From: Naegleria gruberi
Taxonomy: Eukaryota
Strand: one strand, 5' to 3'
DNA length: 64,000 nucleotides
Assembly: GCA_000004985.1 (NCBI GenBank)
Contig: GG738867.1
Positions 14,597-59,296 of this stretch are shown here, piece by piece; position 1 is the stretch's first letter; the number at the start of each line of letters is the position of its first letter. Both the position numbers and the translations under genes were made by a program. Under the pieces are notes generated by a model. The model was given only the letters and a program-made list of their open reading frames with translations. It was not told where the DNA came from and searched no databases.

Positions 14597-14677
14597 CGCG
14601 GTCTACAGGATTCGAACCTGTGCGGGTCGCCCCAATTGATTTCTAGTCAATCACCTTAACCACTCGGTCAAGACCGC
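14597..14677 (-). tRNA. tRNA-Ser (anticodon AGA)
   Basis: Reverse complement GCGGTCTTGACCGAGTGGTTAAGGTGATTGACTAGAAATCAATTGGGGCGACCCGCACAGGTTCGAATCCTGTAGACCGCG folds as a type-II tRNA. Acceptor GCGGTCT/AGACCGC, D-arm GCCGAGTGGTTAAGGC, anticodon stem ATTGA/TCAAT with loop CTAGAAA (AGA), long variable arm, T-loop GGTTCGAATCC. Near-identical to eukaryotic tRNA-Ser-AGA. Confidence 0.85.
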
Positions 14678-17501: not shown

Positions 17502-17574
17502 TAATCAACCTAATATTATTCATCAACCAATTACACCAGCAACCATTGTAAAAATCATCCCAATATCTTCAACA

Positions 17575-18012
17575 ATGAGTAGTAGTAATCAACCAACTCT
17601 CACACCACAACTTGTTTCCAATATTTCCACCACAACTCAAAAGATTATTCCACCACCACCACCAACAAGTGTAAATATTGGAAACAATGCAAATGTTGAT
17701 ACACCCAGAGAATATGTCATTCACGAAAATGAATATGACAGAAAAAAGACTCCAAAATCCAAAAAGAGGCAATCAATTGACTATTGCAATCAAAAGAAGA
17801 TGGAATTTAAGATGGAAATTTCAACAAAGCATCCTCAACCGAATCCTGTGCAAGTAGTTGTTACCTCGTCATCTTCAGTAAGCACACCACAAAGTAATAC
17901 AACACCAACAACAAATTCTTCAAGTATAATGATGGGTCAATATGTCAACAACAACAATAATTCATTTTACAATGAACCACAAATGGATGAGAATCCTGAA
18001 GAAAATAAATGA
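17575..18012 (+). CDS. Low-complexity Pro/Thr/Asn-rich ORF with a basic patch (KKTPKSKKRQ); may be a 3' exon of the preceding gene or an independent small gene
   Basis: 145-aa ATG ORF 74 nt after the stop of the 15882..17501 ORF, in a different frame. No splice signals could be assigned confidently. Confidence 0.3.
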   Translation: MSSSNQPTLTPQLVSNISTTTQKIIPPPPPTSVNIGNNANVDTPREYVIHENEYDRKKTPKSKKRQSIDYCNQKKMEFKMEISTKHPQPNPVQVVVTSSSSVSTPQSNTTPTTNSSSIMMGQYVNNNNNSFYNEPQMDENPEENK

Positions 18013-18269: not shown

Positions 18270-18340
18270 TGCATTAGCCGGGAGTCGAACCCGGGTCACC
18301 AGCTTGGAAGGCTGGTATGATACCGTTACACTACTAATGC
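18270..18340 (-). tRNA. tRNA-Gly (anticodon TCC)
   Basis: Reverse complement GCATTAGTAGTGTAACGGTATCATACCAGCCTTCCAAGCTGGTGACCCGGGTTCGACTCCCGGCTAATGCA. Acceptor GCATTAG/CTAATGC, anticodon stem CCAGC/GCTGG with loop CTTCCAA (TCC), T-arm CCCGGGTTCGACTCCCGG. Closely matches eukaryotic tRNA-Gly-TCC. Confidence 0.85.
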
Positions 18341-21472: not shown

Positions 21473-21553
21473 CGCAGACTGCAGGATTCGAACCTACGAA
21501 GGTTTCCCCAACAGATTTCAAGTCTGTCGCCTTAACCACTCGGCCAAGAATGA
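21473..21553 (-). tRNA. tRNA-Ser (TGA)-like sequence with defective acceptor stem (possible tRNA pseudogene)
   Basis: Reverse complement ..TCATTCTTGGCCGAGTGGTTAAGGCGACAGACTTGAAATCTGTTGGGGAAACCTTCGTAGGTTCGAATCCTGCAGTCTGCG has intact D-arm, anticodon arm (loop CTTGAAA = TGA), variable hairpin and T-arm typical of tRNA-Ser. The 5' acceptor strand TCATTCT pairs at only 4 of 7 positions with the 3' strand AGTCTGC. Confidence 0.45.
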
Positions 21554-24839: not shown

Positions 24840-27075
24840 ATGTCATTGCTCCTCTCGTCATATTCTCGCTTCCAAAATGTTGAGATGATTGGTGCTGGGT
24901 CTGGTGGGACTGTTTTCCGTGCTTTTGATCAAGAAATTGGAAAACAAGTGGCCATCAAAGTGACTAAAAGTATTCAAGAAATGAAAATTGTAAGTAAATT
25001 CTTGTTACATTGTAATCAATGGACAATAATTTAATATATTATATTAATAGTATAATTATATTAAAACAAACAATATTCAAAATAATTACCTGGTTGAAAT
25101 TTATGATCATTTACAGAGTGGTGACGATGACTCTATTATTGTGATGGAGTATTTTCGAGAGGGAAATTTAGAAAATTGGTTGAAACAAAGAAAGAAACCT
25201 CTCAGTTGGCTCTTAATTTATAGTATCCTATTGCAATTAACATTCGGAATACACTACTTGCATTCCAATAAGATTTTTCATAGAGATTTAAAGTTGAGTA
25301 ATATTTTGGTGGTGGAGGAGGTTTGTGAACACATGGTGAGAGTAAAGATTGCAGATTTGGGATTATCGAAAATAGTGGATCATGATACAATCAAGCACTC
25401 CAAGGTTGGAACTCACTATTATCTTCCACCAGAAGTCAGACAACAAACCACTGAAGAAATTATACCAGAGAAAATTGATATTTGGAGTTTTGGAATTCTG
25501 GTTTTCAGATTATTGTCCAGAGATTTTACGTATGATGTGGCCAGCAAGTTGGTCAATAGTAAGGAGAAGGATTTTTGTGAGGATGTACTGATGAAGATGA
25601 TTCAGAATAATGAAAATGTTGATTGTGGGGTTGTGACTAATTTTGTAACATTTCTCACACCAACACTCAAATTGAAACCAAGCGAAAGGTATAATTCACT
25701 GGATTTATTCGATTTATGTTTCAATATTCCAAATAATGAGTCGTATGTCGATCAAGATACTATTGACCTACTTGTTGATTGTAGAGTTGATCCTTTGATA
25801 ATTGGAATTTGTTACTTTTCTCTCAAACAGACAGAAAAATCAATTCACTATCTCGAAAAAGTATTAGAGAACAAAACAGAAAATAACAATAGTGCAGAGA
25901 AGGGCTTTGCATGTGCAATCATGGCCTTTATAACACTGTTCAATGGTAAAAACAGAACCATTGTTAATTCAGAGAAAGAATACAAAGTCAATCCTGACTT
26001 TTTGAGATATATTGAATATGTGGAGAAATATTCAATTACTTTCAAGCTGTATCATTTGTTAAAATCAAAGCAATATTTTATGAGCCAGCATTATGAAAAA
26101 TCTATAGAACATGCAGACCAATGTATAGAACATATTGGCTCTGCCTCTAGTTTGAAAGCTTGTTGCTTGCATGGTTTAGGTTATTATGATAAAGCACTTG
26201 AGGTTATGAAGAAAATCAACCCAAAAACTGAAATGGATTACAGAAACATGTCATATATTTATTTGGTTGAATATCAAAATTATGAGGAGGCTTTAAAGTG
26301 TGCAAATAGTGCACTAGAACTCAATCCAGGAGTTCCTGATTTTTATTTACTGAAAGTATGCTGCCTCGCAAGTGCTGCTCCAAGTGAGGCTCTTACTTGT
26401 TTGAAGAATGCTCGAAAATTAATTGGAAAAGTAGGTGTATATTACTATCACAAGGGGAGAATCTATTTGAATATGGGGAGATTGGAAATGGCTCTTTCTA
26501 AATTAAATAAGGCCCAAGAATTAGGTGAGGAGAGTATGAATTTGATTGCAGTTTTGGAAATGGCATTGGGTAGATTACCTGAAGCTCTTATTTCAATCAA
26601 TAGATATTTAGAAAAGTATCCAAATAATATTACAGCCCATAACAACAAGTTCAAGATATTAATCATGCAAAATTTGACAGAGGAGGCGAAAATTGAGCTA
26701 GAATTAATTGAACATCTCAAACGTCTCAACATCAAAACTGAAAAAACCATCAAACAACAATTGTATTTTGAAAATGACAAACCTCCCATCTCAAACATCT
26801 CAAACACGAATATTAAGGAGTGTTATTTTGTTTCCAAAAACCATACCTTCAAAAGAAAGATTAAATTTAACTCTGTGGAAGATCTTTTGAAGCAATGCAG
26901 AAAAGAATTTCAAGACGAAACAATCACCACTTTTATTGACGAAAATTCACAAGTATGTGATTTAAAATTTGGAACTTTTATACATGGAAAAACCTATACT
27001 GTTACTGGTGATTTGTATATGGAACAAACTTCATATATGAGCTCGCTAATGAATTATCTTTTCCAAAAACGGTAA
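24840..27075 (+). CDS. Protein kinase with C-terminal TPR/Sel1-like repeats (cluster copy B, apparently intact); exons 24840..24989 and 25117..27075
   Basis: Exon 1 has a Gly-loop and VAIK (IGAGSGGTVFRA..KQVAIKV). GTAAGT donor at 24990 and CAG acceptor at 25116. Exon 2 has HRDLKLSNIL, DLG (IADLGLSK), a YYLPPEV activation segment and DIWSFGILVFRLL. About 400 aa of TPR-like helical repeats follow. Confidence 0.8.
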
Positions 27076-29029: not shown

Positions 29030-31204
29030 TTATTTCTCTGATTCAAGGAAGGAATTGATGATATCAGTAAACTGAGAAGGAAATTCTCGTCTCTTTGCAA
29101 GTAATTCCAATGTTTCAGGTATTATTTTCTCATGCAATAAATCTAGACTTGGTCCATTAGAAGATTTCACTGTAAAGCACAATTTGGCATTGTATCCTTT
29201 TTCATTAATACATTGTCCAAACAATTGTCGTAATTGGTAGAAATACGTATAATCACAATCCATAAAAGTCATTGAAACTCTGTCAATAATAAATATGGTT
29301 TGCAATCTCTTTTCAGTTATTTCAATAATTTTGCTTTCTTTTCTAGTACCATCGATAGTGATTGAAACTTTGATTTTCTTTCCTGGTCTTTGTAACAATT
29401 CAATAAGTGACTTATTAGACATTTCTTCATAATCTTTGATAAATATTGAGCAAGCACCGAACCAATTCTTAATGGCCTCTTGTTGTATTTCAGGATGTGA
29501 TGTAAGGATATCCATATTAATCCATCTTATAGCCTTTGGTGCATATTTTACAATCTCTAAAGCATAATCCTTATTGCTAGATATAAACTTTGACACTTTT
29601 TGGAGACTTGTAAAAGGATCTTTTTTAAGAATTGCGATAATAATGTCCATTGAGTGTATGTACTCTTTAGGAATTGTGCTAATATTGTCTCCTCCTTTGA
29701 TGGAAGCAAGAACCATTTCTTTATCAATCTCAATACTACTATCAATTTCTGAAATGCTGAAACCTCTCCTCAAACAGTCTAAAATCAGCTCTCTATCGAT
29801 TCCAATGATATCCTTATATTCCTTTTTAAAAAGATACTTGAGAATGGATGGATTGACTCTTAGAGCCTCTTTAAGGAATTCCTTATCATGTCTCAATGAC
29901 TCATCCAATATCTTGAATAATTTTCTTTCCTGACGGCAATATTTCAACAGCCCTCTATTCTTCAAGAATTCACTGTCAACTTTGAGAGAAATATTCTTGG
30001 ATATGAATTCAGTGTCTATGGTAGTACTAACTTCTATTAACTTGCAGAATAAGTCGAAACTATTGAAAAAGCGATCATCCAAACATGCACAAATATCATC
30101 ACTTTCTACATCATGGCACAGGTACGATATGTCATAATCACGGGTTGTGCACGCCTTTACAATTTCCCAAGGCACAAATCCTATTTTTCCCTCAGCTTCT
30201 CCTTGATCCCAAGGGTAATCTGTATACTTTGAATTGGAAACCTTCGCTTTTTTTAATCCAATAATGTCAATGAGATTGCATGCTACTAAATATTCATCAT
30301 CAAATCCCAAATATCCCACCATTTGTTGTAATTGCAACACTAAAATTCCCTTATCACCTGGAACAAGGGAAACCCAATAATCACTTCTATAATTACAATT
30401 TTCAAAACTTGGATATGATAAACCTCCATAAAAAGAGCATAACAATTCCTTCTCCTTCCTTTGGAAACGGATAATATTTCCATTATTAGAAACTAGGAGA
30501 AATCTATTTGAGGATGTTGTGATTTTACACAGCTTCATATTGTCCATCTCAATAAACTCTACACAATTTGATATCTTTTCTCTGGTAATTTGAATTTCCT
30601 TTACCTCCTCATCTTGTTCATCTTTATCATCTTGGTCATTTTCTTCATCCTCTCCTTCATCTTCTTGATCATCTTCTTCATCTTCCTCTTCCTCTTCATC
30701 TTCTTCTTCTTCATCGTCATGTTCCTCTTCGTTTTGCTCTGTTTCATCATCTCCATCATTTTCATCTTTCCCTTGCTCATCTGTGACCATCATTGCATTC
30801 ACTTCCTCATCCATTTTCAATACCTTCAACAATCTTAACCAATATGCCAATGAATGATATTCATTCTCTGGATTACACTCTACAGACCAAGTCCATGTCA
30901 ATTTTCCTGAACAAATCTTGTTATTCCATAGAGTATCAACCCACTCCTTCAGCAAAAGTATGATCTTCTCACGGGAAAAGTACAAATCGTGCCAATCTTT
31001 ACACACCACAGCAAGTGATGGCAAATCCTTTGGTGAACAAAACTTGAATATATGACCCAATACAAATGGATCATATCGACAAACGAGAATATTTAGAGGT
31101 TTCTCCAATAATTGATTGGATTTTTGCTTTTTTGATGATGACAACGAGAGAGAGTTATCTTCCGAAGAGGTTCGCTTCATTTGGTGTTGGGAATTAGTAG
31201 ACAA
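29030..31204 (-). CDS. F-box-like / poly-acidic / SH3-like / DUF4116-repeat protein
   Basis: 724-aa ATG ORF. N-terminal F-box-like motif (LNILVCRYDPFVLGHIFKFCSPKDLPSLAVVCKDWHDLY). About 70-residue D/E run. SH3-like segment (...GDKGILVLQLQQ...GKIGFVPWEIVKA). C-terminal tandem approx 30-aa repeats of DUF4116 type (DKEFLKEALRVNPSILKYL / DKEMVLASIKGGDNISTIP / DYALEIVKYAPKAIRWI). Confidence 0.6.
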   Translation of the reverse strand: MSTNSQHQMKRTSSEDNSLSLSSSKKQKSNQLLEKPLNILVCRYDPFVLGHIFKFCSPKDLPSLAVVCKDWHDLYFSREKIILLLKEWVDTLWNNKICSGKLTWTWSVECNPENEYHSLAYWLRLLKVLKMDEEVNAMMVTDEQGKDENDGDDETEQNEEEHDDEEEEDEEEEEDEEDDQEDEGEDEENDQDDKDEQDEEVKEIQITREKISNCVEFIEMDNMKLCKITTSSNRFLLVSNNGNIIRFQRKEKELLCSFYGGLSYPSFENCNYRSDYWVSLVPGDKGILVLQLQQMVGYLGFDDEYLVACNLIDIIGLKKAKVSNSKYTDYPWDQGEAEGKIGFVPWEIVKACTTRDYDISYLCHDVESDDICACLDDRFFNSFDLFCKLIEVSTTIDTEFISKNISLKVDSEFLKNRGLLKYCRQERKLFKILDESLRHDKEFLKEALRVNPSILKYLFKKEYKDIIGIDRELILDCLRRGFSISEIDSSIEIDKEMVLASIKGGDNISTIPKEYIHSMDIIIAILKKDPFTSLQKVSKFISSNKDYALEIVKYAPKAIRWINMDILTSHPEIQQEAIKNWFGACSIFIKDYEEMSNKSLIELLQRPGKKIKVSITIDGTRKESKIIEITEKRLQTIFIIDRVSMTFMDCDYTYFYQLRQLFGQCINEKGYNAKLCFTVKSSNGPSLDLLHEKIIPETLELLAKRREFPSQFTDIINSFLESEK

Positions 31205-46601: not shown

Positions 46602-49600
46602 TTATAAAATTTCCTTTCTTTGAGCATTGGGTGGTTCTCTAATTCTGGCAATTTTGATGAATTGCTCGACAGTCATGGTGCTTCCATAGAGTGCAGAGGC
46701 TTCTCGTTGTTGCTTTTGGATCATCATTTGGATTTGGAAAACTGGTTGGATGGCAAAGTCAACTCGACACTTTTCCAATCTGTTCATGGCTGTGGCAAGT
46801 TCTTCAAATTTGGCCCATCGAATCATGTTATTGTGATGTTTCACATAGGTTTCAGTTGAGTAAAAGTAGCTCAATTCTTCCTGTTGTAAAAAATCCATAA
46901 AATGATTCTGAATATACATGAGCTCTCTCAAGTGAGCTTCAACAATTGGAAGACAAGGAGTTCTGCATCCATCAAATAGGTCATTATAATTCTGATATCG
47001 AGAATCTTCAACAACTACTACATCGATATGATAATTGGATGGATCAAATCCGAAAAAGATGTCATATTTGGATTTGAAATGAATGAGGGATGGAGTTGGC
47101 ATGTGAGAGAAGGAAGAATCTTTTGATTTGGCAGTATGGTGATCCTCATAAAAGACTACGAGTGGATTAGTTTCCACTTCTTCAGCTTCATTGTCATCCT
47201 CTGAGGCAATTTGTTGCTGTTTGATTGAGTTGTTGACACTTGTTGGAATTACTCTGACAGTGCTTATTGATTCCTTTCTTCTGACAATATTTGGAGATGG
47301 AAGGGAACTTTCTACATTGACAGAAGTGGAACTATTGATAGAGAATGAGTCGAATGAGCCTGATTTTCTCATTTCTTGAACAATGGTATGGCTGTGTTTT
47401 GGGTGACCGAGATTTCTCACAATACTCTTGAAACTAAAGTTGGCATTTCCTTTGAATTTCTTTTTGGATTCATCGACAGTATGGTAGAGATTTTCCTTAA
47501 TGGCTGGATGTGAAAAGATGGTAGCAAGTGCATGGGCAGCACCATAGTTTTGCATATTGTACAATTCAATAATGATTTGCTTAATCTTGATGATCAATTC
47601 AACACGATCCTTGATGTGTGGTTTATCCAAGACATCACACATAAGCCAATTAGCTCTATCGTGGATCAACTCGAGATATTGACACAATTTAGGACAATTC
47701 ATCTTGAAATATTGAGATCTAAAATTGGAAATGGCCATATTGAAATCCAAGTAGCCATACGTCTTTTTACAATTCTTTACAGAGAGAATGGAATAATTCA
47801 AAAATTCAACACTCGAAATTTCACTATAAAAGTAATAATCCATAATAGTGAATTGTCTAGATAATTCTACAGGTGACACATCTGACCATTTGAGAGAGGA
47901 TGAAAAGACATTTGGAGGAATGTTTGGTCTTGGACATTTTGACGAGTCCATGTAAATGGTTTTGTAAAAGTGATAATATTCGTCAGTGTTGGTATTATCA
48001 TCATCAAGATTTTCATCGGTATCAATTGAAGTTTCCAAGGCATTCCTCTTTCCTCTTCTATTGTTGCCATTAGTGAAGATTACATCAGAATCTGATTCAG
48101 ATAAATGGGACGAGAAGAAATTAGACAACTTATCAGAGAATGACTCTGTGTCGGTCTTTTCAATTTCCAGCGAAGTGAATTGGGTATATTCCTTAATGCT
48201 GACCTTCTTTCTCAGATTCTTCTTACCTAAAATTGTTGCCATTTTCTTTTTCAATGTTGTATTGATAGTTTCACATAATTCGAGTGCATTTCCAACTTTT
48301 GATAGAGTCACAACCGAGTCTGGAATCTTGCTTGACTCAACCTTTTTCAATAAGTGTAGGGATTTTATCTGTTCGATAATCTTTGAGAGAAATTCGAACA
48401 TGTTTTGATTCCATTGATAGTAATATTCCGATAGCCAATAGCTCAACACATCGAGACAACAAATAATAATTTCAATACACTCTACAGTTTCCAAAAGTTT
48501 TGACATTGTGTTGGTAATTCTATCAACGTGTTCACCGACTGATTCTTCAAGAATATTATCATTAGTGACATCAGTAGAGGAAAAGACTCCCTTACTATCT
48601 AATCCGAAATTTTTCATGATCAAGATGAGTGGAAGACTCAACCTTTCGAATATTTTCAATAGGAGACCATCTGGAGACAGAATGTGAACATATCCCCTGA
48701 AGAATGCCTTTCTAAAAGTGTCCTTTGTTTCGATTCTTGTCTCAGGACGTACACAATTCTCTCCAAATACTTCGAAATAATCATTAGCAACAGTATCGTA
48801 TTCTCTGAAACGAATCTTACTCATAGTATCGAATAGTCTGTGCTCAGTGACTGTAACCATTTCAATGAGTTTGTTCAAAGTCAATCCAAATAAGACGTTG
48901 TGATTCTTATCGTCGTCTTTGAATGTATAAAAATTGGAGAATGAGTCAAATAATTCATGATGTTCTCCAGTGCTTTGATTCTTCCTCTCTATGAATAGTT
49001 TTCGTTGTTTGATATCATTTGAGGTCAGAGTTTCGAATGCAATCTTGGGAATGTTTGAGAACTCCTCCCAATAGGAAGGTTTCAGAGAGAGCTTGTTAGA
49101 TTGAGAACGAAGGAGGAATTTTTGGAAGAAATTTTGAGTTACTGTTTTCGAAGGAATGAAAGTGTTTCTTCTGATGGTACTTTCTCTCACTCTCGATTTG
49201 GCAGGCGAGAGAGGAGAATTTTTGCTCGATAAAGTGCTAGCTCTTCCATGAATGGAACGAAGCTTTTCCAATGTTTCGGCAGCTGTTGGTCTTCCAATAG
49301 GATTAGGATCCAATAATTTACAAATCAATTCGGCCAATTCAGTTCCATTAGTTACACATTCCATAACTTGTTGTCTGAGTTGGGCATGGAAATTCACATT
49401 CTGATACACCTCAATGTAAAATTGTCTATTCAAGACTTGGAACAAGAGTTCATAAAATACACAACCAAGAGACCACATATCTGTCGAATATCCATATGGT
49501 TCCTGGGACATCATTTCTGGTGAGCAATATTTAACAGTACCCAGAAGAGTTTGTTCAGAGCTAAAGCTTTGTGGAACAAGAAGCTGGTCAGTGTGAATAC

Positions 49601-50426
49601 TGCCATTATTCCTATTGAAAAAATTACCTCTTTCCTTTTCCAATTCTACTGCTTCTTCACTGGTGGAGAATTTCATCTTTTTCATAGTTTCAAAATCTCC
49701 AATCTTGATCGACTTTTCATCATTGGTAACAAAAATGTTACTCGGCTTTAAATCCAAATGTACAAATCCCTCGGAATGCAAATACTTGACACCCTCTGCA
49801 ATTTGAATCATGTAACTCAATAATTGATCTCTCGAAATGACTTCAAATATTGAATTGACATGACAATTATTCGTACTTTCGTATTGTTTAGTTTTCTTCT
49901 TCAAATAGGTATCCAAATCACCATGTTTAAAGTATTCCATTTGAAAGCAAATCCAATAACTTTGTTTCTTATCAACAAGCTGACTCAAATTCTCAACTTG
50001 CATCTTGATAGATGATGATGAATCGGAAGAAATTGAACCTGCTTCAGCAATTTCATTCTCATCCTCATCGTCATCTTCACTTCCAACAAGTAATTTGGAT
50101 TTTTCACTAGCTTCATTCTTTGTATTGGCAACAAACTGATTACCATTCACATTCCCAGTACCAGTACCAACACTATTTCCTCCTCCACCTCCTCCCAAAT
50201 TAGAATTACTATTCGAATTATTTGTATTCATAATATTTGCAAACTTTTCAAAAAAGATATCTTCAATTTCTACAAGATTTGGCGACTTTAAATGTCTCAA
50301 TTTCCATCCCTCAGATATAAATCTGTTCAACTCATCCTCCGAGTAGCATTGTGTCTTTTTGAGAACTTTTGTAATGTGCTCTCGGGTGACAATGACGAGA
50401 ACCATTTGTTGATTATTCTTCATCAT
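46602..50426 (-). CDS. Protein kinase - RasGEF (CDC25-homology) fusion protein; the 5' end possibly extends upstream
   Basis: 1274-aa ORF. Kinase C-lobe motifs YLHSEGFVHLDLKPSNIF, IGDFETMK, GTVKYCSPE and DMWSLGCVFYELL. Gly/Asn-rich insert. RasGEF N-terminal-like region and a CDC25 catalytic domain (..NMQNYGAAHALATIFSHPAIKENLYHTVDE.. / ..PCLPIVEAHLRELMYIQNHFMDF). The reading frame stays open for about 70 codons upstream of the first Met without another ATG. Confidence 0.65.
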   Translation of the reverse strand: MMKNNQQMVLVIVTREHITKVLKKTQCYSEDELNRFISEGWKLRHLKSPNLVEIEDIFFEKFANIMNTNNSNSNSNLGGGGGGNSVGTGTGNVNGNQFVANTKNEASEKSKLLVGSEDDDEDENEIAEAGSISSDSSSSIKMQVENLSQLVDKKQSYWICFQMEYFKHGDLDTYLKKKTKQYESTNNCHVNSIFEVISRDQLLSYMIQIAEGVKYLHSEGFVHLDLKPSNIFVTNDEKSIKIGDFETMKKMKFSTSEEAVELEKERGNFFNRNNGSIHTDQLLVPQSFSSEQTLLGTVKYCSPEMMSQEPYGYSTDMWSLGCVFYELLFQVLNRQFYIEVYQNVNFHAQLRQQVMECVTNGTELAELICKLLDPNPIGRPTAAETLEKLRSIHGRASTLSSKNSPLSPAKSRVRESTIRRNTFIPSKTVTQNFFQKFLLRSQSNKLSLKPSYWEEFSNIPKIAFETLTSNDIKQRKLFIERKNQSTGEHHELFDSFSNFYTFKDDDKNHNVLFGLTLNKLIEMVTVTEHRLFDTMSKIRFREYDTVANDYFEVFGENCVRPETRIETKDTFRKAFFRGYVHILSPDGLLLKIFERLSLPLILIMKNFGLDSKGVFSSTDVTNDNILEESVGEHVDRITNTMSKLLETVECIEIIICCLDVLSYWLSEYYYQWNQNMFEFLSKIIEQIKSLHLLKKVESSKIPDSVVTLSKVGNALELCETINTTLKKKMATILGKKNLRKKVSIKEYTQFTSLEIEKTDTESFSDKLSNFFSSHLSESDSDVIFTNGNNRRGKRNALETSIDTDENLDDDNTNTDEYYHFYKTIYMDSSKCPRPNIPPNVFSSSLKWSDVSPVELSRQFTIMDYYFYSEISSVEFLNYSILSVKNCKKTYGYLDFNMAISNFRSQYFKMNCPKLCQYLELIHDRANWLMCDVLDKPHIKDRVELIIKIKQIIIELYNMQNYGAAHALATIFSHPAIKENLYHTVDESKKKFKGNANFSFKSIVRNLGHPKHSHTIVQEMRKSGSFDSFSINSSTSVNVESSLPSPNIVRRKESISTVRVIPTSVNNSIKQQQIASEDDNEAEEVETNPLVVFYEDHHTAKSKDSSFSHMPTPSLIHFKSKYDIFFGFDPSNYHIDVVVVEDSRYQNYNDLFDGCRTPCLPIVEAHLRELMYIQNHFMDFLQQEELSYFYSTETYVKHHNNMIRWAKFEELATAMNRLEKCRVDFAIQPVFQIQMMIQKQQREASALYGSTMTVEQFIKIARIREPPNAQRKEIL

Positions 50427-50922: not shown

Positions 50923-52216
50923 ATGTCCTTATTTTCCAACTCATTATTCACGCCTCCTACAGTTGCTAATAGTGATGATTGTAAAGATTGCACAGAGGAG
51001 GGATTTACCAGTCCTATGAGTTATGTGTGTTCCGATTGTTCCTCCAATTTGTGTTGTTATCACGGACAAAAACATATGAAGGAAAATTCTGATCATTCTG
51101 TTGTAGCTAAATCAGCTTACAGTAGTAATAGTAGTAGTAATAGTGGAAATGTAACAACAAGTGGTAGCAATTTGTTTGGATTTATGAGTTCTTCTTCTTC
51201 TTCTGGTATTTTCGGATCAACAAGTAATAGTGCTAATAGTATTTTCGGATCAACAAGTGGAACAACAAGTGGTGGTGGTTTGTTTGGTAATAGTAGCAGT
51301 ACTAATAATTCTGGATCGATATTTAGTGGTGCTTTTTCAACTTCATCCCCGATTGTTGAGCTTACTCCAGAGGAAATTATGAAGAAAAATCTTGAAGCTG
51401 TTGAAATGTTTGAGAATAGTAGGGATTCTGCATTATCACTCTTTATTGCAATGCATAACCATGTTCCTGTTAACAATAGTTGTAAATTGATTTTGGTTGT
51501 AAGTGAAATATTTTCTAATTTTTTCATCTATTTGAAATATTGTTAGGGAGATAGCTGTGGAAAATCATCCTTTGTTAAAAGATTAATCTCAAATGAATTC
51601 CATGGGCCATACATTCCAACCCTTGGTGTCTCTGTTCATGCAAAGGTAAGCTCTCTTGATTAATATTAATTCAAATTGACTTTATTGAAGAAATTTGAAA
51701 CAACCCATGGTGATATCACTTTCAACATTTGGGATTGTGCAGGTCAAGAAAAGTTTGGAGGCAAGTTGACTTTATTAAGCAATTCTAATATTATTTTATA
51801 ACATTTTAGGATTGAGAGAAGGTTATTATATCAATGGTAATTGTGCCATCATTATGTTTGATTGTGTAAATTCTTTGAAAAGTGTTAATAATTGGCTTAG
51901 AGATGTTGTAAGAATTTGTGAAGGCATTCCAATTGTATTGTGTCTCAATAAGGCTGATCTCTTATCAGAGGAAGCAAGACAAAGACTCAAATTTGAAATA
52001 GCAGGTTTTCGTGGTCGTATTCTCAACTATTTCGAGTTGTCAAATAAGGATTCATTGAATTTGGAAGATCCACTCGAATATTTGGCCAAAGCACTGCTCA
52101 AAAACAAACATGTTTCATTCTTTTCCAAGGTAAGAAAGCAACAAGAAAATGTATTCCATCAAAAGCTTCAAAACACTTCCATGACAGCAGATGCCAACAT
52201 CAAGACAATTGAGTAA
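50923..52216 (+). CDS. Divergent Ran-like small GTPase with N-terminal Cys-rich zinc-ribbon-like motif and FG repeats; exons 50923..51498, 51547..51645, 51691..51760, 51810..52216
   Basis: Ran homology runs across 3 introns: KLILVGDSCGKSSFVKRLISNEF (Ran [24 protein letters not shown]), [31 protein letters not shown] (Ran [31 protein letters not shown]), and VLCLNKADL (NKxD). Intron 1 is GTAAGT...TAG and intron 2 is GTAAGC...AAG. Intron 3 can only be drawn as GCAAGT...TAG (51761..51809), which exactly restores GG-L-REGYYI. The N-terminal 190 aa have CKDC...CSDC...CCYHGQKH followed by GIFGSTSN / SIFGSTSG / GLFGNSS / LFGFMSS FG-type repeats. Confidence 0.7.
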
Positions 52217-52394: not shown

Positions 52395-55300
52395 ATGTCA
52401 TCATCACACTCATTCACTCTAATCTTTCTAACTATTGCTGTTATATTGCTAACTTTAAATGGGCACTATTCGATATTTGCCTTTGATCTTACTTTTCCAA
52501 CATTTCCTGATGCCAAGTTTCGATCGGATACTTCCAATGCCACTGAAGTGTTTATTAAAGACTCAATTGACCAAATTGCTAAACAACTCGAGCCACCATC
52601 TTTAGCTCTTCCATATTATATTGATGGACCAATAGCACTATTCGCAGAAGTGGTTGGAGTTCTCTCAAATAGTGACACGTACAGTAAACCTTACGTAAAA
52701 CCACCAGATGTTATTTCGAATAGTACACACGAAATGTTGAACATAATGATGACCAAAGTATTGAACCGAGTAGAAACTGCCCTGTTAGAAACCAAATATG
52801 ATAAGCTTGTTATTGCTCTCGTTATTGAACTCGATAAGGATCTTGAAGTTGCTGATTGTAACATTTCGCCAATCATTCCAATAGAAATATCAAAAAAACT
52901 TGCTGACATTACTGTCTATTTGACAATTAATGGTCATTCCTTGAATATGAAATGTGGTGGAGATTATTTATTCTCTAGTGGTCCAGATTCCAATTGGAAC
53001 ATTGTTATTAACAGAGCAGTACTTTCGAATATATATTTTACTGGAAATTATGTTTTCAAAAAGGTTGAATTTTTGGCTCAATGTGAAATATCAGCTTCTA
53101 GTTTTTTAGTATTCATCAAATCCAAGACTCTTCACACACTATATATTCCCTACATTAGTGCTATTAAGGAATTGATATTTATTGATAGTGTTATGGATAA
53201 ATTAAGAGTGGATTTCATTCAAGAGTTTCATCTATTTTTGGCAAGTAATAGTTTGATTGGTTTAGGAATGTTCGATTGTGAAATTAAGAATGTTTGGCTG
53301 TATAATTCAAAGGTTTATCTAGAAGACAGGTTTATTATTGAAAGTTCTGATCAATTCATATTATTTAACTCAACTATTCAATCAAAGAACTCTCCAATAC
53401 AGATGAGAATAGAATATTCGAAACTTATTTTCATAGATGGCTTTAAAAATTCTCATACTCCAATCATGCTCTCACTTTCACATTCCATTTCTGTTGTAAT
53501 GAAAAACATATTACTCAATTCTGCCACTTTACAACAAGAATCACTTCTTAATTTTCGAGGAATCAAATCATTATCCATCTATTCCTCCATATTTAAAGAA
53601 AACAATGCAAATAGAATTATAGACATTAGTGATTCAAGTGAGGTTGACATTAAAGAGATTTTATTTGAGGAGAATTCTGCTACTGATAGTCCAATTTGCA
53701 TTTCTCCTGGTGGAGCTAAGAGCTCACATACCCGTATTGTGGACAGTGTTTTTAATAGGAATAAGGCGGGAAATAAGGCAGTGATTGCATTGTCTCATCC
53801 AATTATATTGGCCCGATCTGTTTTTAATGAAAATGAGGGAGTTAGTGGAGGTTTGTATATTTTGATTTAAATTGGTGGTTGACCATGTTTAGGAGCTATT
53901 TATGTTGAAGCTGGATTTACTATTTCTGGGTCCACTTTCAAGAAGAACAAGGCCAAGAATGGAGGAGCTCTGTATATTCACTCAGAAATTGGTGCTTCAG
54001 GTACCATGCAAAATGTTGATTTTGTGGAAAATCAAGTAACAGATCTAGATGATGTTAAAGTGTGTGGTCAAGATAGTTGTGATGGAAGTGGAGGTGCTAT
54101 TTATTATAACCAAAACGACCTTTTCTCAATAATGTCATGCAATTTTGTCAAGAATTTGGCTGTCAGAGGAGGTGCCATCTTTGCAAATTTTGAAAATGAT
54201 ACCATTTTTATTACTTATTCGAAATTCAAAGAAAATTATGCAAGTTATGGAGGAGGTGCAATCTATTCTAATTCTGCCTCATATCTTCCATTAATTTATG
54301 AAGAATTGGGAAGTGGAAATAAGGCTAAAGTATTTGGAGATTATGTTGCTTCTTCCATTGCTAGTGTGAATTGGAGAGTTCAAATTGAGGATCAAAAAGA
54401 TAGATTATATGAAGGAAATCAAACTATTTCAGTATATCCAGGTCAATTATTTACCATTATTCCCTATTTTACTGACCTTTACAATAATTCTTTTGTAATG
54501 AATAAGGAAGTTTCAAAAATCAAAGTTTCAGGATCAAATTTCACAATTAGTCAATCATCAGAAAAGGAATTTACTAATCTATTCATTGCATCAACCGGTC
54601 CACTTCCAAATTCTGAACATTTACACATGACAACACTTACCATTTCATTTTACAAAACCGAAACCAATCTAAAAGTCCAACTTCTCCCCTGTCCAAAGAA
54701 TTTCTATTTGAAAGATAATCAATTTAGTAAGAATCTTGTCTGTGTCTATGAAGAATCCAGAGAATATCTGATTGCTGTAGCTGTTTCAGTAACCATTGTG
54801 GTCATTACCCTTCTCCTATGCTCAATAGGTGTCATTTCCATGCTCTGCTACAAGATATCCCACAAGGTAAAGTATTGGATGCGTAGAGATAAGGCAGAAA
54901 AGGAAATTGAAAAGCGATTACTCGAATCTGATCTATGTCCAGAAGAGGAATTGCTCAGTGTTCGAAATTTGAATTTTGTGATTAGTATTGATCAGATTAC
55001 ATTGGAAAGAAAGATTGGAGAAGGTGGTTCTGGAATTGTTTATTTGGGAAAATGGCATCACCATCCAGTTGCTGTCAAATGTCTTAAACTTCAAGATGCT
55101 TATCAAAATTCAGATGAAATTGAAAAGGAAGCAGCTCTATTATGCAAACTTAGACATCCCAATATTGTATTATTCTTTGGTGTTTCATTAACTCCACAGA
55201 AACAATATCTCATTGTGGAATATTTGGAGAAGGGAAGTTTGGAGAAACATATTTCATTAATGAAACGAAACCATCAATTCGAATTTGTTGACAAGTTGAA

Positions 55301-56086
55301 GCTTTTGATTGATATCACATGTGGAATGGCATATCTTCATTCCCTTAAAGTTATTCATAGGTATGTGAAATATTTAAACTATTTATTCCTAATATTCGAA
55401 ACAGAGATTTGAAACCTGGAAATATTCTATTAGATTCTGTTGGAGTAGCCAAAGTTTGTGATTTTGGCATTTCTAGAATTGCTGGAAACACTGCAGCAAA
55501 CTCCACAACCATCTGTGCTGGAACTTTAACCTACATGGCTCCTGAACTATTGCAATCAGATGCCGAAAAGAATCGAATTACAACCTCAGTCGATGTTTAC
55601 AGTTTCTCAATTATCATGTATGAAATATTCTTTGAGGAAGCTCCCTATGCAAAATCTTTGAAAATCAAACAATTTAAACAGGAAAGAAATGGAAAAATTC
55701 ATAATTCTCATTCAGAAGATGGTTTTTATAATAATCATCATCTTGTAACTCCATTTTCAGTTATTTCCAAAGTGATTAAGGGAGTGAGACCTGAAATTCC
55801 ATTCGAAAATCCACAAGATATTGCTGAATGGCTTCAATTATACATGTTTGAATATGGATTACTTTCCGATATTTGTAAATCAAAGGCAATTTCTATTGTA
55901 AATGATTATGTGGAATTGATGAAAGCTTGTTGGAGTGCAGAGCCAGATCAGAGACCAAACTTTGAAACTGTTCTCAATTGTCTTTCATTGTTGAGACAGC
56001 AATTTATGGACTTGACAGATTATCATAAACAGATATCTGGTTCTCTATCCTCTACATCAACAACTACTACAACTGCCTATGACTAA
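52395..56086 (+). CDS. Receptor-like TKL-family protein kinase with large GGAIY-repeat (Pmp-like / parallel beta-helix) ectodomain; exons 52395..53850, 53893..55360, 55405..56086
   Basis: Signal peptide (LIFLTIAVILLTLNG). Approx 800-aa ectodomain containing recurrent GGA[IL]Y/GGGAIY units (GGAIYYNQND, GGAIFANFEN, GGGAIYSNSA, GGALYIHSE). Single TM (LIAVAVSVTIVVITLLLCSIGVISMLCY). The cytoplasmic kinase has IGEGGSGIVYLG, AVK, HRDLKPGNILL and DFG. GTTTGT donor at 53851 with TAG acceptor at 53892, and GTATGT donor at 55361 with CAG acceptor at 55404. Confidence 0.7.
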
Positions 56087-56186: not shown

Positions 56187-57520
56187 TTATATTGAATTAC
56201 CGTGTAGAGATTCTTCTGCCATTGCATTAAAATTAGAAACAGTTTCGTCCTGTGAAACTGAAATACTACTACAAGGTGTACCATTAATATCATGTGGTGG
56301 AGTTGCAACTGGAGTGCCTGAATCAGAAGGCGACAAGATCAACTCTGAAATCTTTGCCTTCTCTCCAATTGGCACAAATACAGAGCTACGATTTCTTGGA
56401 CTTGTTGGAATTGTTTTCGTTTCGGAACAATTAGATTTCGTATCATCCATATGCAACTCTTTGAAAACTGTCTCAGTCTGAATGAATAACGGATAGAATA
56501 GAGCAAGAGTCAAGCTGGCAAAAAATAAAATTCCAGCACAGTTTACAAAATGCCAAATAAACTTGAATTCGTCCTTGTCAGCAACGAGTGCAGCTCCAAT
56601 GATTACTGCTAAAAGTTGAAGCAAGATACAGGCAATTAAGCCAATCAGGAGAGAGAATGTCACAATAAATGGGTTTTCCATCTTTTTTTGATGACTAGTG
56701 ACGTTCTTAATCTTTTGGATGGACTTTCGAATAGTTTTAATCACTAATATTCCAGAAGTTAAAATAGCAATGGTATCTTTTGCATATAAAACTAGAATAA
56801 TTCCAAATAGTACAAAGTTAAGGGTGGTAGTTTCTGTTTTGTTAAAGATATTAAACTTGGTCAGAGGAACAAATAAACTTGCCAAGGTTAATACAATGAA
56901 AGTGGCAATTACGAAAAGAACTATTGTGATCTGAGTAAAGATTCTAACTCTCTTGAATGCCTTCTTTGAAATGGCTCTCATGGTTACAGCAGTTCTCCAA
57001 CTATTTTTTCTATTAGAATCAAAACTAAATTATTCGAAACTTACAAAACCATCTGAACGAAAAACAAAATCACAAACAACATGATAAAGTTCAGAAACAT
57101 GAAGAATGATGAAAATCCAGCAGTTACCCAAATAGCCATATAGTGTGAGTAAGAAACCCTTTCACCTCTCTCAACAATTATTCTAGCTCTAATGAATAGG
57201 ATATCATTTACTATACGAATCAGTAAATTGATACATTGGATAGCTACCATGGACCCTGCCAATAAGAACATGATGATATGATTCCTTTTCATGATTCCTT
57301 CACCAACTTTCTTCTCAGACGAAACGTGTTGATGTTTAATTCTATTTCGAATAAGACTCAATAACAATCCAAAGCAAATAAAGTAAATAATAAACAAGCA
57401 CAAATAGAAACCAGAATTAGCCATCGAAGCAGCTGGACCCCATATTGGTGGAAAGGCATTCACAGACGAAACATTGACGAAACCATCACCAGGGAACGAA
57501 ACAGTAACATTTGAAGACAT
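56187..57520 (-). CDS. 7-transmembrane receptor-like protein (GPCR-like), tandem paralogue 1; exons 57520..57045 and 57000..56187
   Basis: Exon 1 has about 3-4 hydrophobic helices and ends FFVQMV with a GTAAGT donor (phase 2). A 44-nt intron with TAG acceptor. Exon 2 begins ..WRTAVTMRAISKKAFKRVRIF, has 4 more helices and then a Ser/Thr-rich cytoplasmic tail. Seven to eight TM segments in total. A VERGERVSY motif sits at the end of a helix. Start taken as the ATG at 57520 (MSSNVTV...); an alternative ATG is at 57559. Confidence 0.6.
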
Positions 57521-57975
57521 TTTTTTATAGTAGAAGCTCGTTATTCTCTCACTCAACACCTGTATTAACGTTTGATGGAATGGTTATCATATAGTACAGA
57601 GATAAAACATGTCAAATTGACAGTTGGCTCTTTCCAAATATGGAATAATCTCACTTTTCATGTTGGTATGATATTTAGTAATAGACACCAAAGAAATACA
57701 ACTACTATATAGGAATGATGGAAGTGAGATATTGAAAAAAGCAAAGAACCACTTGTACTGTAAAATACTGAATTGTAAACTTGGTGAGACTTGATGTCAT
57801 CAAATGCGTACTACACAAGATTAATGCTTACAGTAAGTTTCTAGTTCATGAAAAGATTCTGATGAAATTGTTGGTCCACAGTGATGGAAGGTTTCTTCAA
57901 AGTTTAGAATAGTTTGGTTTCTGACCACAAAATATTCGAAATTCTCGAAAGTTTCAACTTGATTGCAATAGTTTC

Positions 57976-59296
57976 TCATTCAATCATTGCAATGACAGAT
58001 TCACTACTTGGTAAGGGCATGAAATTCGAAAGTGTTTCACCAGGAGTTTCATTCGAAAGTGCACTACTGCTCGATGTTCCAGAATTTCCCTGCAATATTT
58101 GCAATGTTGCATCACCAGGTGATAAAACCATTGCACTCTTCTTATTATCAATTGAAAGAAGCATTGAATTTCTATTATTCGATTCGTTTCTTCTACTTTC
58201 AGATAGATTAGAAATGTTTGACTTTGTATCATCAATATGCAATTCCTTAATCACCGTCTCTGTCTGAATAAACAATGGATAGAATAATCCAAGTGTCAAA
58301 ATGGCAAACATTAAAATTCCAGCACAATTAATGAAATGCCAAACAAATTTCAATTCTTCCCTATCAGAAACCAAAACTGCTCCGACAATTACTGCAAGGA
58401 ATTGAAGTAAAATGCAAGAAATTAAAGCTATCAGTAAGGAAAATGTGACAAGGAATGGATTTTCCATTTTCTTGTGTTGAGTGGAAATGTTCTTAATTTT
58501 CAGAATGGACTTTCGAATGGTTTTAATGACCAGTATTCCAGAAATGAGAATGGCAATGGTATCTTTGGAGTATAATAGAACGATTAATCCTAGTAAAATA
58601 AAGTTGACTGTGTTGCTTGTTGATTTTGAAAGGTAATCGAATTTCAATAGGGGAACTGAGATACTAATGAGGATTAGTAAGACGAAAGCAGCAAATACAA
58701 AGAGAGAAATGGTGATTTGAGTAAAGATTCTAACTCTCTTGAATGTCTTCTTTGAAATGGCTCTCATTGTTGCGGCAGTTCTCCAACTAGTTTTTCTGTT
58801 AGAAACAAAATATTAAATTATTCGAAACTTACAAAACCATCTGAACGAAAAATAGAATCACAAACAACATGATATAGTTAAGAAACATGAAGAATGATGA
58901 AATACTAGTCAATGACCACATGGCTGCATAGTGAGCGAAGGTTATCCTTTCACCTCTCTCAACAATTAATCTTGCCTCCATGAATAGGATATCAGAAACT
59001 AATCTGATCAGTAAATTAATACATTGAACGGCAACCATGGACCCTGCCAATATGAACATGATCACATGATTACGTTTCATCACTTGTTTAGTTCTGTTTT
59101 GATCCACTCTCTTTCGAATAGTTCTAAACAACAAGCCGAAACATATGAAATAAATGGCAAAGAGAACCAGATAGAAACCAGAATTAGCCATCGAAGCAGC
59201 AGTTCCCCACACAGGAGGAAATACATTCACAGACGAAACATTGACGAAACCATCCTCTGAAAATTTAATGGTTTCATTGCAACAACCTTTTGACAT
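57976..59296 (-). CDS. 7-transmembrane receptor-like protein (GPCR-like), tandem paralogue 2; exons 59296..58833 and 58786..57976
   Basis: Same two-exon structure as the neighbouring gene, with the same phase-2 GTAAGT donor after FFVQMV and a 46-nt intron. High similarity along the whole length (e.g. MRAISKKTFKRVRIFTQITISLFVF... vs MRAISKKAFKRVRIFTQITIVLFVI...). The C-terminal tails have diverged. Confidence 0.6.

What the first reader, a model, noticed from the sequence alone, without database searches (positions are those of the whole stretch)
52395..56086. Receptor-like TKL kinase with a GGAIY-repeat (Pmp-like parallel beta-helix) ectodomain
The protein is approx 1200 aa with a signal peptide, an approx 800-aa extracellular region built from GGA[IL]Y / GGGAIY repeat units, one TM helix and a cytoplasmic tyrosine-kinase-like Ser/Thr kinase. 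The repeat units recall the GGAI motif of chlamydial polymorphic membrane proteins and pectin-lyase-like beta-helices. Coupling such a beta-helical adhesin-like ectodomain to a kinase is unusual. It is a candidate surface receptor for carbohydrate-rich or particulate ligands.
Basis: partly seen in the sequence, partly recalled or inferred. Interest (0 to 1): 0.7.

Follow-up and report, generated by a model that had tools for sequence, protein, structure and literature searches.

The report
Naegleria beta-helix receptor kinase gene
This is a real, intact gene of the amoeba Naegleria gruberi for a single-pass membrane kinase whose outer part is a Pmp-type beta-helix; the design recurs in related amoebae, has not been described in the literature I could search, and its ligand is unknown.

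Summary
The gene is real. Three exons (52395-53850, 53893-55360, 55405-56086, + strand) give a 1201-aa protein. It has a signal peptide, a roughly 750-aa ectodomain, one TM helix (778-803), a conserved charged juxtamembrane segment, and a TKL-group kinase (854-1166) with every catalytic motif intact.

Residues about 200-392 are probably degenerate coils, but only a low-confidence model supports this. Residues 24-199 are orphan sequence. Residues 636-751 form an Ig-like sandwich followed by a Cys module.

Ectodomain and kinase N-lobe share one stop-free exon, so they are one gene. The window is Naegleria gruberi. No N. gruberi protein from this locus turned up in the protein database. Collinear homologues exist in N. 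fowleri and N. lovaniensis (each split into two gene models by a frameshift), in Willaertia magna and in metagenomes. pN/pS is 0.24.

Most likely it is a ligand-clustered receptor kinase; the ligand is untested. It is a new variant of known kinds and of moderate interest.

The parts
52395..53850 (+). Exon 1 (residues 1-485 plus the first base of codon 486)
   Evidence: ORF from ATG 52395. The splice donor is G|GTTTGT at 53851.
53851..53892 (+). Intron 1, 42 nt, GTTTGT...TAG, 29% GC, with an in-frame TAA if retained
   Evidence: The intronless relative L003 reads 'GLMGGAIYAEIG' straight across the junction. The 98.5%-identical strain L001 carries 1-nt indels only inside this intron.
53893..55360 (+). 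Exon 2: one stop-free frame holding the Pmp coils, Ig-like domain, TM helix, juxtamembrane segment and kinase N-lobe up to HRD
   Evidence: One search found no stop between 53895 and 55359. In L001 a prokaryotic gene caller found a 514-aa ORF here with both Chlam_PMP and Pkinase.
55361..55404 (+). Intron 2, 44 nt, GTATGT...CAG; it splits the Arg codon of HRDLKPGN
   Evidence: P0009 (64% identical) has a continuous 'LKVIHRDLKPGNILLDS'.
55405..56086 (+). Exon 3 (kinase C-lobe, Ser/Thr-rich tail, stop TAA at 56084-56086)
52395..52463 (+). Signal-peptide-like N-terminus (residues 1-23, h-region FTLIFLTIAVILLTL)
   Evidence: Hydrophobicity scan. No dedicated predictor was available, so the cleavage site is approximate.
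52464..52991 (+). N-terminal ectodomain region of unknown fold (residues 24-199)
   Evidence: No Pfam hit, no homologues, AF2 pLDDT below 50, and no alignment to the N. fowleri or W. magna proteins.
52992..53570 (+). Probable degenerate beta-helix coils (residues about 200-392), lacking GGA/FxxN motifs
53571..54284 (+). Eight Pmp-type coils (residues 393-616; spans intron 1). FxxN at residues 400, 424, 453, 477, 501, 529, 570, 597. GGA[IL] at residues 485, 509, 552, 578, 606.
54342..54689 (+). Membrane-proximal beta-sandwich (Ig-like) domain, residues 636-751, with a conserved YPGQ motif (667-670)
   Evidence: The AF2 model is all-beta here, pLDDT 57-82. Foldseek gives only weak hits to Rib, Big and Ig domains, E at best 0.0067. 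The domain is conserved in N. fowleri P0012, W. magna and L003.
54690..54743 (+). Conserved two-cysteine module CPxG[YF]...C just outside the membrane (residues 752-769)
   Evidence: Seen by eye in the family sequences: CPKNFY / CPDGYK / CPEGYF / CPGDYT / CPKGYS / CPQGMI.
54768..54845 (+). Transmembrane helix (residues 778-803), followed by a K/R-rich stretch
   Evidence: Kyte-Doolittle maximum of 2.82, and the only strong internal hydrophobic segment.
54846..54995 (+). Juxtamembrane segment with the conserved charged motif KAEKEIEKRLL (residues 819-829, nt 54891-54923)
   Evidence: The motif is conserved in N. fowleri, N. lovaniensis, W. magna and P0009.
54996..55978 (+). TKL-group protein kinase domain (residues 854-1166; spans intron 2). 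Motifs: GEGGSG 861-866, VAVK 878-881, HRDLKPGN 974-981, DFG 994-996, APE 1020-1022, CWSAEPDQRP 1150-1159.
   Evidence: Pfam. PDB best hits are CTR1 at 4e-42, then B-Raf, RAF1 and MLT. There are 0 nonsynonymous and 7 synonymous differences from strain L001.

Best explanation
The locus encodes one functional type I receptor-like Ser/Thr (TKL-group) kinase of Naegleria gruberi.

Shown: its extracytoplasmic part is an elongated right-handed parallel beta-helix. The C-terminal eight coils of that helix are Pmp-type (FxxN/GGA[IL]). The helix sits on an Ig-like stalk and a small disulfide module. One TM helix follows, then a conserved charged juxtamembrane helix, then a catalytically complete kinase.

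Inferred mechanism: the beta-helix binds a multivalent or polymeric ligand, or stacks with other copies as Pmp helices are predicted to do. The likeliest ligand for a bacterivorous amoeba is a prey or environmental surface glycan or particle. Binding brings two or more receptors together. The kinase domains then trans-phosphorylate the Ser/Thr-rich activation loop and signal to cytoplasmic targets that control uptake, adhesion or a life-cycle decision.

The architecture, fold, gene integrity and selective constraint are shown. Ligand class, clustering, localisation and downstream pathway are inferred.
For: One gene:
- Exon 2 is a stop-free frame from the Pmp coils to the HRD motif.
- The splice sites are confirmed by intronless relatives.

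Pmp repeat and fold:
- Chlam_PMP scores 37.8 bits against GA 20.6, and TIGR01376 scores 38.3 against 15.
- The AF2 model of residues 487-775 has mean pLDDT 75.5, with block means mostly 84-98 in the coils.

Topology:
- An N-terminal hydrophobic leader, a single TM segment, and a K/R-rich stretch after it.

Active TKL kinase:
- All catalytic motifs are present. The best solved relatives are CTR1, B-Raf, RAF1 and MLT.

Functional gene:
- Against a 98.5%-identical strain, pN/pS is 0.24 overall and 0.37 in the ectodomain. The kinase has 0 nonsynonymous and 7 synonymous changes. The only exon indel is an in-frame 6-nt one.

Conserved architecture:
- N. fowleri aligns as a single BLASTP alignment over residues 282-1169 (30% identity, E 2e-95) once a 1-nt frameshift is bridged.
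- N. lovaniensis is collinear.
- W. magna P0205 carries Chlam_PMP, Beta_helix and Pkinase in one annotated protein.

Precedents:
- Receptor-like TKLs in amoebae (PMC1420674).
- Predicted stacking of Pmp helices, with the motifs being structural (PMC11166332).
- Pmp-like proteins mediating adherence in Trichomonas (bioRxiv 10.1101/454884; PMC6701047).
Against: - There is no expression, localisation, ligand or phosphorylation evidence of any kind.
- Signal-peptide cleavage rests on a hydrophobicity heuristic only.
- Residues 24-199 are of unknown fold.
- Residues 200-392 show no detectable sequence similarity to Pmp coils (hhalign probability 0.3%). Their helical fold rests on a model with pLDDT about 43.
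- The ectodomain matches no solved structure by sequence.
- The Ig-like assignment is weak (Foldseek E at best 0.0067).
- The beta-helix fold is shared by enzymes, adhesins and tailspikes alike, so the fold does not specify a ligand.
- The homologues in N. fowleri and N. lovaniensis carry frameshifts, and L003 carries an in-frame stop. If real, these would mean the family is dispensable or decaying in some lineages.
Confidence: 0.6

Rival explanations
1. It is the same protein, but it works on endo-lysosomal or phagosomal membranes rather than at the cell surface. The beta-helix would face the vesicle lumen and sense or bind ingested material. The kinase on the cytosolic face would regulate phagosome maturation, as Dictyostelium VSK3 does.
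For: The topology is identical to that of VSK3, a receptor-like TKL shown to sit on late endosomes and lysosomes with a lumenal N-terminus and to be needed for phagosome maturation (PMC2064856). Tagged Trichomonas Pmp-like proteins were mostly intracellular (ER, Golgi, lysosome) (PMC6701047).
Against: No sorting motif was identified (no NPx[YF]). VSK3 has a TIG ectodomain, not a beta-helix. Nothing in the sequence distinguishes plasma-membrane from endosomal residence.
Confidence: 0.2
2. The ectodomain is a membrane-tethered carbohydrate-active enzyme (lyase, epimerase or glycosidase of the pectin-lyase-like fold). The kinase would report on or regulate that activity, rather than the ectodomain acting as a ligand-binding receptor.
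Against: Sequence identity to these enzymes is only 8-13%, and no enzyme family was hit by Pfam or NCBIfam. The only sequence-level signal is the Pmp repeat, whose conserved residues are structural and face the helix core (PMC11166332). Characterised Pmp-repeat proteins are adhesins, not enzymes (general knowledge of the family).
Confidence: 0.05
3. The gene model is an artefact. The ectodomain and kinase would be separate genes, or the locus would be a decaying pseudogene.
For: No N. gruberi protein from this locus was found in the protein database. The N. fowleri and N. lovaniensis homologues are annotated as two adjacent genes. The metagenomic relative L003 has an in-frame TAA.
Against: Pmp coils, TM helix and kinase N-lobe lie in one uninterrupted exon. 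Both introns have canonical GT..AG ends and are absent, in register, from relatives. pN/pS is 0.24, with no nonsynonymous change in the kinase and only in-frame exon indels between two strains. The splits in the other species are single-base frameshifts at homopolymer runs, with open frames on both sides. W. magna has the domains in one annotated protein.
Confidence: 0.03

Closest known systems
Trichomonad Pmp-like surface proteins (e.g. the T. vaginalis TVAG Pmp family; PMC6701047, bioRxiv 10.1101/454884)
   Same: They are eukaryotic type I membrane proteins. They have N-terminal FxxN/GGA[ILV] repeats and a single C-terminal TM domain, and they lack the chlamydial middle and autotransporter domains. 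They are implicated in adherence.
   Different: They end in a short cytoplasmic tail with endocytic motifs (NPx[YF], acidic cluster) and carry an ATPITK motif. The Naegleria protein has none of these. Instead it carries an approximately 400-aa cytoplasmic region with a TKL kinase, plus an Ig-like stalk.
Chlamydial polymorphic membrane proteins (Pmps; Pfam PF02415, TIGR01376)
   Same: They have the same repeat signature, passing both curated thresholds. They have the same right-handed parallel beta-helix with one repeat per coil (PMC11166332, PMC10715098).
   Different: Pmps are bacterial type V autotransporters with a Pmp middle domain and a C-terminal beta-barrel. Neither is present here. This protein has 8 canonical coils against 22-27 in PmpD and PmpB.
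Dictyostelium receptor-like TKL kinases: the GDT family (Gdt1, Gdt2) and DRK/VSK kinases (PMC1420674, PMC2064856)
   Same: The plan is the same: signal peptide, ectodomain, one TM helix, then a cytoplasmic TKL kinase. They belong to a free-living phagotrophic amoeba and are used for growth/differentiation decisions (GDT) or phagosome maturation (VSK3).
   Different: They come from a different supergroup (Amoebozoa versus Heterolobosea). The DRK ectodomains are a TIG domain or a Dictyostelium-specific domain. The GDT ectodomain is described only as a family-specific 'gdt domain'. Whether it is beta-helical or Pmp-like could not be tested here, because the sequences and papers were not available.
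Heterolobosean homologues annotated as hypothetical proteins: W. magna ABK040_003596 (P0205) and ABK040_016141 (P0188); N. fowleri FDP41_009158 plus its upstream neighbour; N. lovaniensis C9374_013523 plus its upstream neighbour
   Same: The order of parts is collinear: beta-helix with Pmp coils, YPGQ sandwich, CPxG[YF]..C module, TM helix, KAEK-type juxtamembrane motif, then a TKL kinase with the same C-lobe insertions.
   Different: Identity is only 24-30% in the ectodomain and 30-39% in the kinase. The N-terminal 200-280 residues do not align. The loci are not syntenic, so these may be paralogues rather than orthologues. The gene models are split or truncated.
Plant wall-sensing receptor kinases (WAKs, CrRLK1L/malectin-like RLKs; named from general knowledge, not tested)
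   Same: They are single-pass TKL-group (RLK/Pelle) kinases whose ectodomains engage polysaccharides. This makes them a functional analogy for a glycan-sensing receptor kinase.
   Different: The ectodomain folds are unrelated (EGF/GubWAK, malectin). The kinase family is different: the best hits here are Raf/CTR1/MLK-like, not RLK/Pelle. No ligand is known for the Naegleria protein.

Membership tests
Pmp-repeat (Chlam_PMP / POMP_repeat) domain proteins | Repeated FxxN and GGA[ILV] tetrapeptides in a regular register of about 24-28 aa, recognised by PF02415 and TIGR01376 above their curated cut-offs | tested here: met
   PF02415 scores 37.8 bits against 20.6. TIGR01376 scores 38.3 bits against 15. 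There are 8 FxxN and 5 GGA[IL] motifs in register within residues 393-616.
Pmp-repeat (Chlam_PMP / POMP_repeat) domain proteins | The repeats form the coils of a right-handed parallel beta-helix | tested here: met
Chlamydial Pmp autotransporters | Pmp middle domain and a C-terminal autotransporter beta-barrel | tested here: not met
   The Pfam scan of the whole protein at E up to 1 lists neither domain. The C-terminus is a TM helix plus a kinase.
Trichomonad Pmp-like surface proteins | Pmp repeats followed by a single C-terminal TM domain in a eukaryotic protein | tested here: met
   The definition is from PMC6701047.
Trichomonad Pmp-like surface proteins | Conserved ATPITK motif and a short cytoplasmic tail with NPx[YF] or acidic endocytic motifs | tested here: not met
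   A string search found no ATPITK and no NPx[YF]. The cytoplasmic part is about 400 aa and contains a kinase.
Eukaryotic protein kinase, TKL group | Complete ePK catalytic core (Gly loop, VAIK Lys, alpha-C Glu, HRD, DFG, APE, subdomain XI Arg) | tested here: met
   Present: GEGGSG 861-866, VAVK 878-881, HRDLKPGN 974-981, DFG 994-996, APE 1020-1022, CWSAEPDQRP 1150-1159. Pkinase E-value is 5e-53.
Eukaryotic protein kinase, TKL group | Closest similarity to TKL families rather than to the TK, STE or other groups | tested here: met
   The best PDB hits are CTR1 (4e-42), B-Raf, RAF1 and MLT/ZAK. Database hits are named TKL, CTR1 or drkD. The HRDLKPGN motif is of the Ser/Thr type. No formal kinome-HMM classification was run.
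Type I receptor-like kinase | Signal peptide, extracytoplasmic domain, one TM helix and a cytoplasmic kinase in one polypeptide | tested here: met
   Hydrophobic leader and single TM segment. Ectodomain and kinase lie in one exon. Signal-peptide cleavage is assessed by heuristic only.
Type I receptor-like kinase | Ligand-dependent activation at a membrane facing the outside or a lumen | not testable with these tools
   This requires localisation, ligand binding and phosphorylation experiments.
Dictyostelium GDT family | Family-specific conserved 'gdt' extracellular domain joined to a GDT-type TKL kinase | not tested
   GDT sequences and the Gdt1 and Gdt2 papers were not retrievable. No Dictyostelium GDT protein appeared among the listed hits, which is not conclusive.

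The most novel reading that the evidence does not exclude
Heteroloboseans (Naegleria, Willaertia) possess a lineage-specific family of beta-helix receptor kinases, assembled by fusing a Pmp-type adhesin-like module to a Raf/CTR1-like TKL kinase. These would act as direct sensors of bacterial-prey or environmental surface polysaccharides and couple particle contact to phagocytosis or to the amoeba-flagellate-cyst decisions. This would be an independent invention of glycan-sensing receptor kinases outside plants, animals and Amoebozoa, and it includes the pathogen N. fowleri.
Probability: 0.15. Interest if true: 0.65.

Novelty: new variant of a known kind. Interest (0 to 1): 0.42.

Why it matters
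Receptor kinases of free-living protists are poorly known. For Heterolobosea, my literature searches found no characterised receptor kinase and no mention of Pmp-like proteins.

This locus shows that Naegleria and Willaertia join a bacterial-style adhesin fold directly to a Raf-like kinase. That gives a concrete, testable candidate for how these amoebae sense prey or surfaces. A homologue is present in the brain-eating N. fowleri.

There is also a practical point. No N. gruberi protein from this locus was found in the database, and the gene is split into two 'hypothetical proteins' in N. fowleri and N. lovaniensis. Proteome-based surveys of those species will therefore miss this domain combination.

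Tried and rejected
1. Paralogue search inside the window. tblastn found only the gene itself and two unrelated kinase domains at about 25.1 kb and 49.4-49.9 kb. The rest of the genome could not be searched.
2. Exhaustive phmmer of exon 1 (residues 1-485) against 1.84 billion representatives. It returned only the self-like metagenome copy, one short Pmp-like match and one match I judge spurious. The N-terminal half is orphan at sequence level.
Searches and models therefore had to be done exon by exon.
5. A coil HMM built from the eight repeats found no further coils upstream of residue 393. hhalign of 196-392 against 393-615 gave probability 0.3%. Hydrophobic autocorrelation was weak, z about 1.8 at lags 20-22.
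6. A sequence search of the ectodomain against the PDB gave no hit at E up to 10. Foldseek against the PDB gave only weak Ig-like hits. The AFDB library was unavailable.
7. Literature searches for Naegleria plus Pmp, Chlam_PMP plus kinase, and Naegleria plus receptor kinase/TKL found nothing relevant. The metagenome project accession PRJEB11402 is not mentioned in any held paper.
8. The Gdt1 and Gdt2 papers were not held, so the possible relation to the Dictyostelium GDT ectodomain remains untested.
9. My first guesses at the organism from GC content and intron style (Entamoeba, dictyostelids, Trichomonas) were rejected once three window ORFs matched N. gruberi proteins exactly.
10. The separate-genes and pseudogene reading was considered and rejected.
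Full report
**What is in the sequence.** Three ORFs in the same orientation lie at 52395-53870, 54006-55412 and 55409-56086. Reading the DNA shows two short introns with canonical ends. Intron 1 is 53851-53892 (42 nt, GTTTGT...TAG). Intron 2 is 55361-55404 (44 nt, GTATGT...CAG). Removing them gives a 3606-nt CDS and a 1201-aa protein. Retaining either intron introduces an in-frame stop.

No RNA data were available, but comparison serves in their place. A metagenomic relative (L003/P0009) is 50% identical over residues 421-1193. It reads 'GLMGGAIYAEIG' and 'VIHRDLKPGN' without interruption exactly where the introns lie. A second metagenomic contig (L001) is 98.5% identical in DNA. It differs by 1-nt indels only inside intron 1, and its single exon indel is an in-frame 6-nt one.

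**Organism.** The window is eukaryotic. It encodes Vps51-like, Sec7/BIG and PAN2 proteins and several kinases. Three of its ORFs are exact matches to Naegleria gruberi proteins EFC44696.1, EFC44697.1 and EFC44698.1. The 33% GC content fits.

The gene studied here appears not to be annotated in N. gruberi. The spliced protein is not in the 15-billion-sequence collection. Three searches that would have ranked a 100%-identical protein first returned only the metagenomic copies.

**Anatomy.**
- A hydrophobic leader (residues about 7-21) and one strong TM segment (778-803) are the only hydrophobic stretches. K/R-rich sequence follows the TM segment. Eight N-glycosylation sequons lie in the ectodomain.
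- Pfam finds Pkinase (5e-53) and PK_Tyr_Ser-Thr (3e-52) at residues 854-1166. It also finds Chlam_PMP at 37.8 bits against a cut-off of 20.6.
- NCBIfam finds TIGR01376 POMP_repeat at 38.3 bits against a cut-off of 15.
- All catalytic motifs are present: GEGGSG, VAVK, HRDLKPGN, DFG, APE and CW..P..RP.
- The closest solved kinases are CTR1, B-Raf, RAF1 and MLT. This places the kinase in the TKL group with a Ser/Thr-type catalytic loop.

**How much of the ectodomain is Pmp-like.**
- There are five GGA[IL] motifs (residues 485, 509, 552, 578, 606).
- There are eight FxxN motifs in a register of about 24-41 residues (400-597). Together these make eight coils spanning residues 393-616.
- A coil HMM finds nothing upstream of residue 393. 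hhalign sees no relation between 196-392 and 393-615.
- Residues 1-485 have no real homologue among 1.84 billion representatives.

**Structure.** AF2 on residues 487-775, with a 48-row alignment, gave mean pLDDT 75.5. Block means are mostly 84-98 in the coils, which show three strands per turn. The membrane-proximal beta-sandwich (636-751) scored 57-82.

I therefore regard a helix from roughly residue 200 to 616 as likely. Only residues 393-616 are demonstrated. Residues 24-199 remain unexplained.

**One gene, and a working one.** Exon 2 is a single stop-free frame. It contains four of the GGA[IL] coils, the sandwich, the TM helix, the juxtamembrane segment and the kinase N-lobe. This excludes the separate-genes alternative.

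Between the window and strain L001, pN/pS is 0.24 overall and 0.37 in the ectodomain. The kinase has 0 nonsynonymous and 7 synonymous changes.

**Relatives.**
- *N. fowleri.* The best named kinase hit (P0012, 530 aa) lies 44 nt downstream of a 629-aa 'Chlam_PMP (faint)' gene. The two frames overlap and are separated by a single-base shift at a TTTT run. The bridged 1176-aa protein aligns to ours in one BLASTP alignment, residues 282-1169, at 30% identity and E 2e-95.
- *N. lovaniensis.* The arrangement is the same, with an 806-aa Pmp gene followed by a 414-aa kinase gene. A frameshift at an AAAA run falls between the CPxG motif and the TM segment.
- *Willaertia magna.* There are two members. 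One (ABK040_003596) is annotated as a single protein with Chlam_PMP, Beta_helix and Pkinase.
- *Shared family features.* These are a YPGQ motif in the sandwich, a CPxG[YF]...C module just outside the membrane, a KAEKEIEKRLL-type juxtamembrane motif and C-lobe insertions.
- The design is therefore conserved in Naegleria and Willaertia. No paper describing it was found.

**Mechanism.** The shown facts are a receptor-kinase topology, an elongated beta-helical ectodomain on an Ig-like stalk, an intact kinase and purifying selection.

By analogy with receptor-like TKLs of Dictyostelium (PMC1420674), the likeliest mechanism is ligand- or self-association-driven clustering, followed by trans-autophosphorylation. 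Two further observations on Pmp helices bear on this. They are predicted to stack end to end, with the repeat motifs playing a structural role (PMC11166332). They also mediate adherence in Trichomonas (bioRxiv 10.1101/454884).

For a bacterivore, a polymeric or particulate ligand is plausible but untested. A VSK3-like role on phagosomes (PMC2064856) is the main rival. A tethered-enzyme role is unlikely, because only the fold, and no enzyme family signature, is shared.

**Verdict.** The protein is not a member of the chlamydial Pmp autotransporters, because it lacks the middle domain and the barrel. It is not a member of the trichomonad Pmp family either, because it lacks the ATPITK motif and the short tail. 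It is a new variant that joins a Pmp-type beta-helix to a TKL kinase. Interest is moderate.

Noticed in passing
window 52395-56086: This N. gruberi gene seems to be missing from the public protein sets. The spliced protein is not in the collection, and no 100%-identical hit appeared in three searches, although neighbouring window ORFs match EFC/XP entries exactly.
   Followed up: partly
L002 about 7930-8000 (N. fowleri VFQX01000067.1); L005 about 4870-4900 (N. lovaniensis PYSW02000006.1): In both species the homologous receptor kinase is annotated as two adjacent 'hypothetical protein' genes. The cause is a single-base frameshift at a homopolymer (TTTT and AAAA respectively). This is probably a long-read assembly error, but it could be real pseudogenisation.
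   Followed up: partly
L003 about 960-1006: The 50%-identical metagenomic relative carries one in-frame TAA inside the membrane-proximal domain ('NFLFKR*IIRLRVEECPKGY'). The cause is unknown: sequencing error, pseudogene or polymorphism.
   Followed up: no
window 56187-56981 (-), 57041-57559 (-), 57976-58767 (-): Directly downstream lie two tandem paralogues of a multi-pass membrane protein. They are 65% identical in protein, and each has four hydrophobic segments. The ORF between them (57041-57559) has three more hydrophobic segments and may be the upstream exon of the first copy, which would make a 7-TM protein. There is no Pfam assignment.
   Followed up: partly
window 46602-50426 (-): A 1274-aa ORF combines a protein kinase domain with a RasGEF domain.
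   Followed up: no
window 25141-27075 (+): A kinase domain is followed by many TPR repeats. The ORF starts inside the kinase domain, so an upstream exon is likely.
   Followed up: no
window 50923-51546 (+): The ORF has a Cys/His-rich N-terminus followed by Ser/Gly/Asn-rich xFG-type repeats (LFGF, IFGS, LFGN). This is reminiscent of FG-nucleoporin-like proteins.
   Followed up: no
window 51812-52216 (+): There is a Ras-family small GTPase fragment immediately upstream of the receptor kinase (Pfam Ras in the L001 gene call). The ORF lacks the N-terminal P-loop part, so it probably has an upstream exon.
   Followed up: no
window 14597-14677, 18270-18340, 21473-21553 (all -): Three tRNA genes lie within 7 kb on the minus strand. 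Two are 81 nt long, which suggests a long variable arm or an intron.
   Followed up: no
window 16001-18000: This is the strongest GC skew in the window (-0.32). It overlaps a 539-aa ORF (15882-17501) with no Pfam match.
   Followed up: no
window 29030-31204 (-): A 724-aa ORF carries DUF4116 repeats.
   Followed up: no
protein residues 819-829 (window 54891-54923) and 1068-1145: The juxtamembrane motif KAEKEIEKRLL and two C-lobe insertions (including '..IPF....WL..Y..') are conserved from Naegleria to Willaertia. They may form a family-specific regulatory or dimerisation element.
   Followed up: partly
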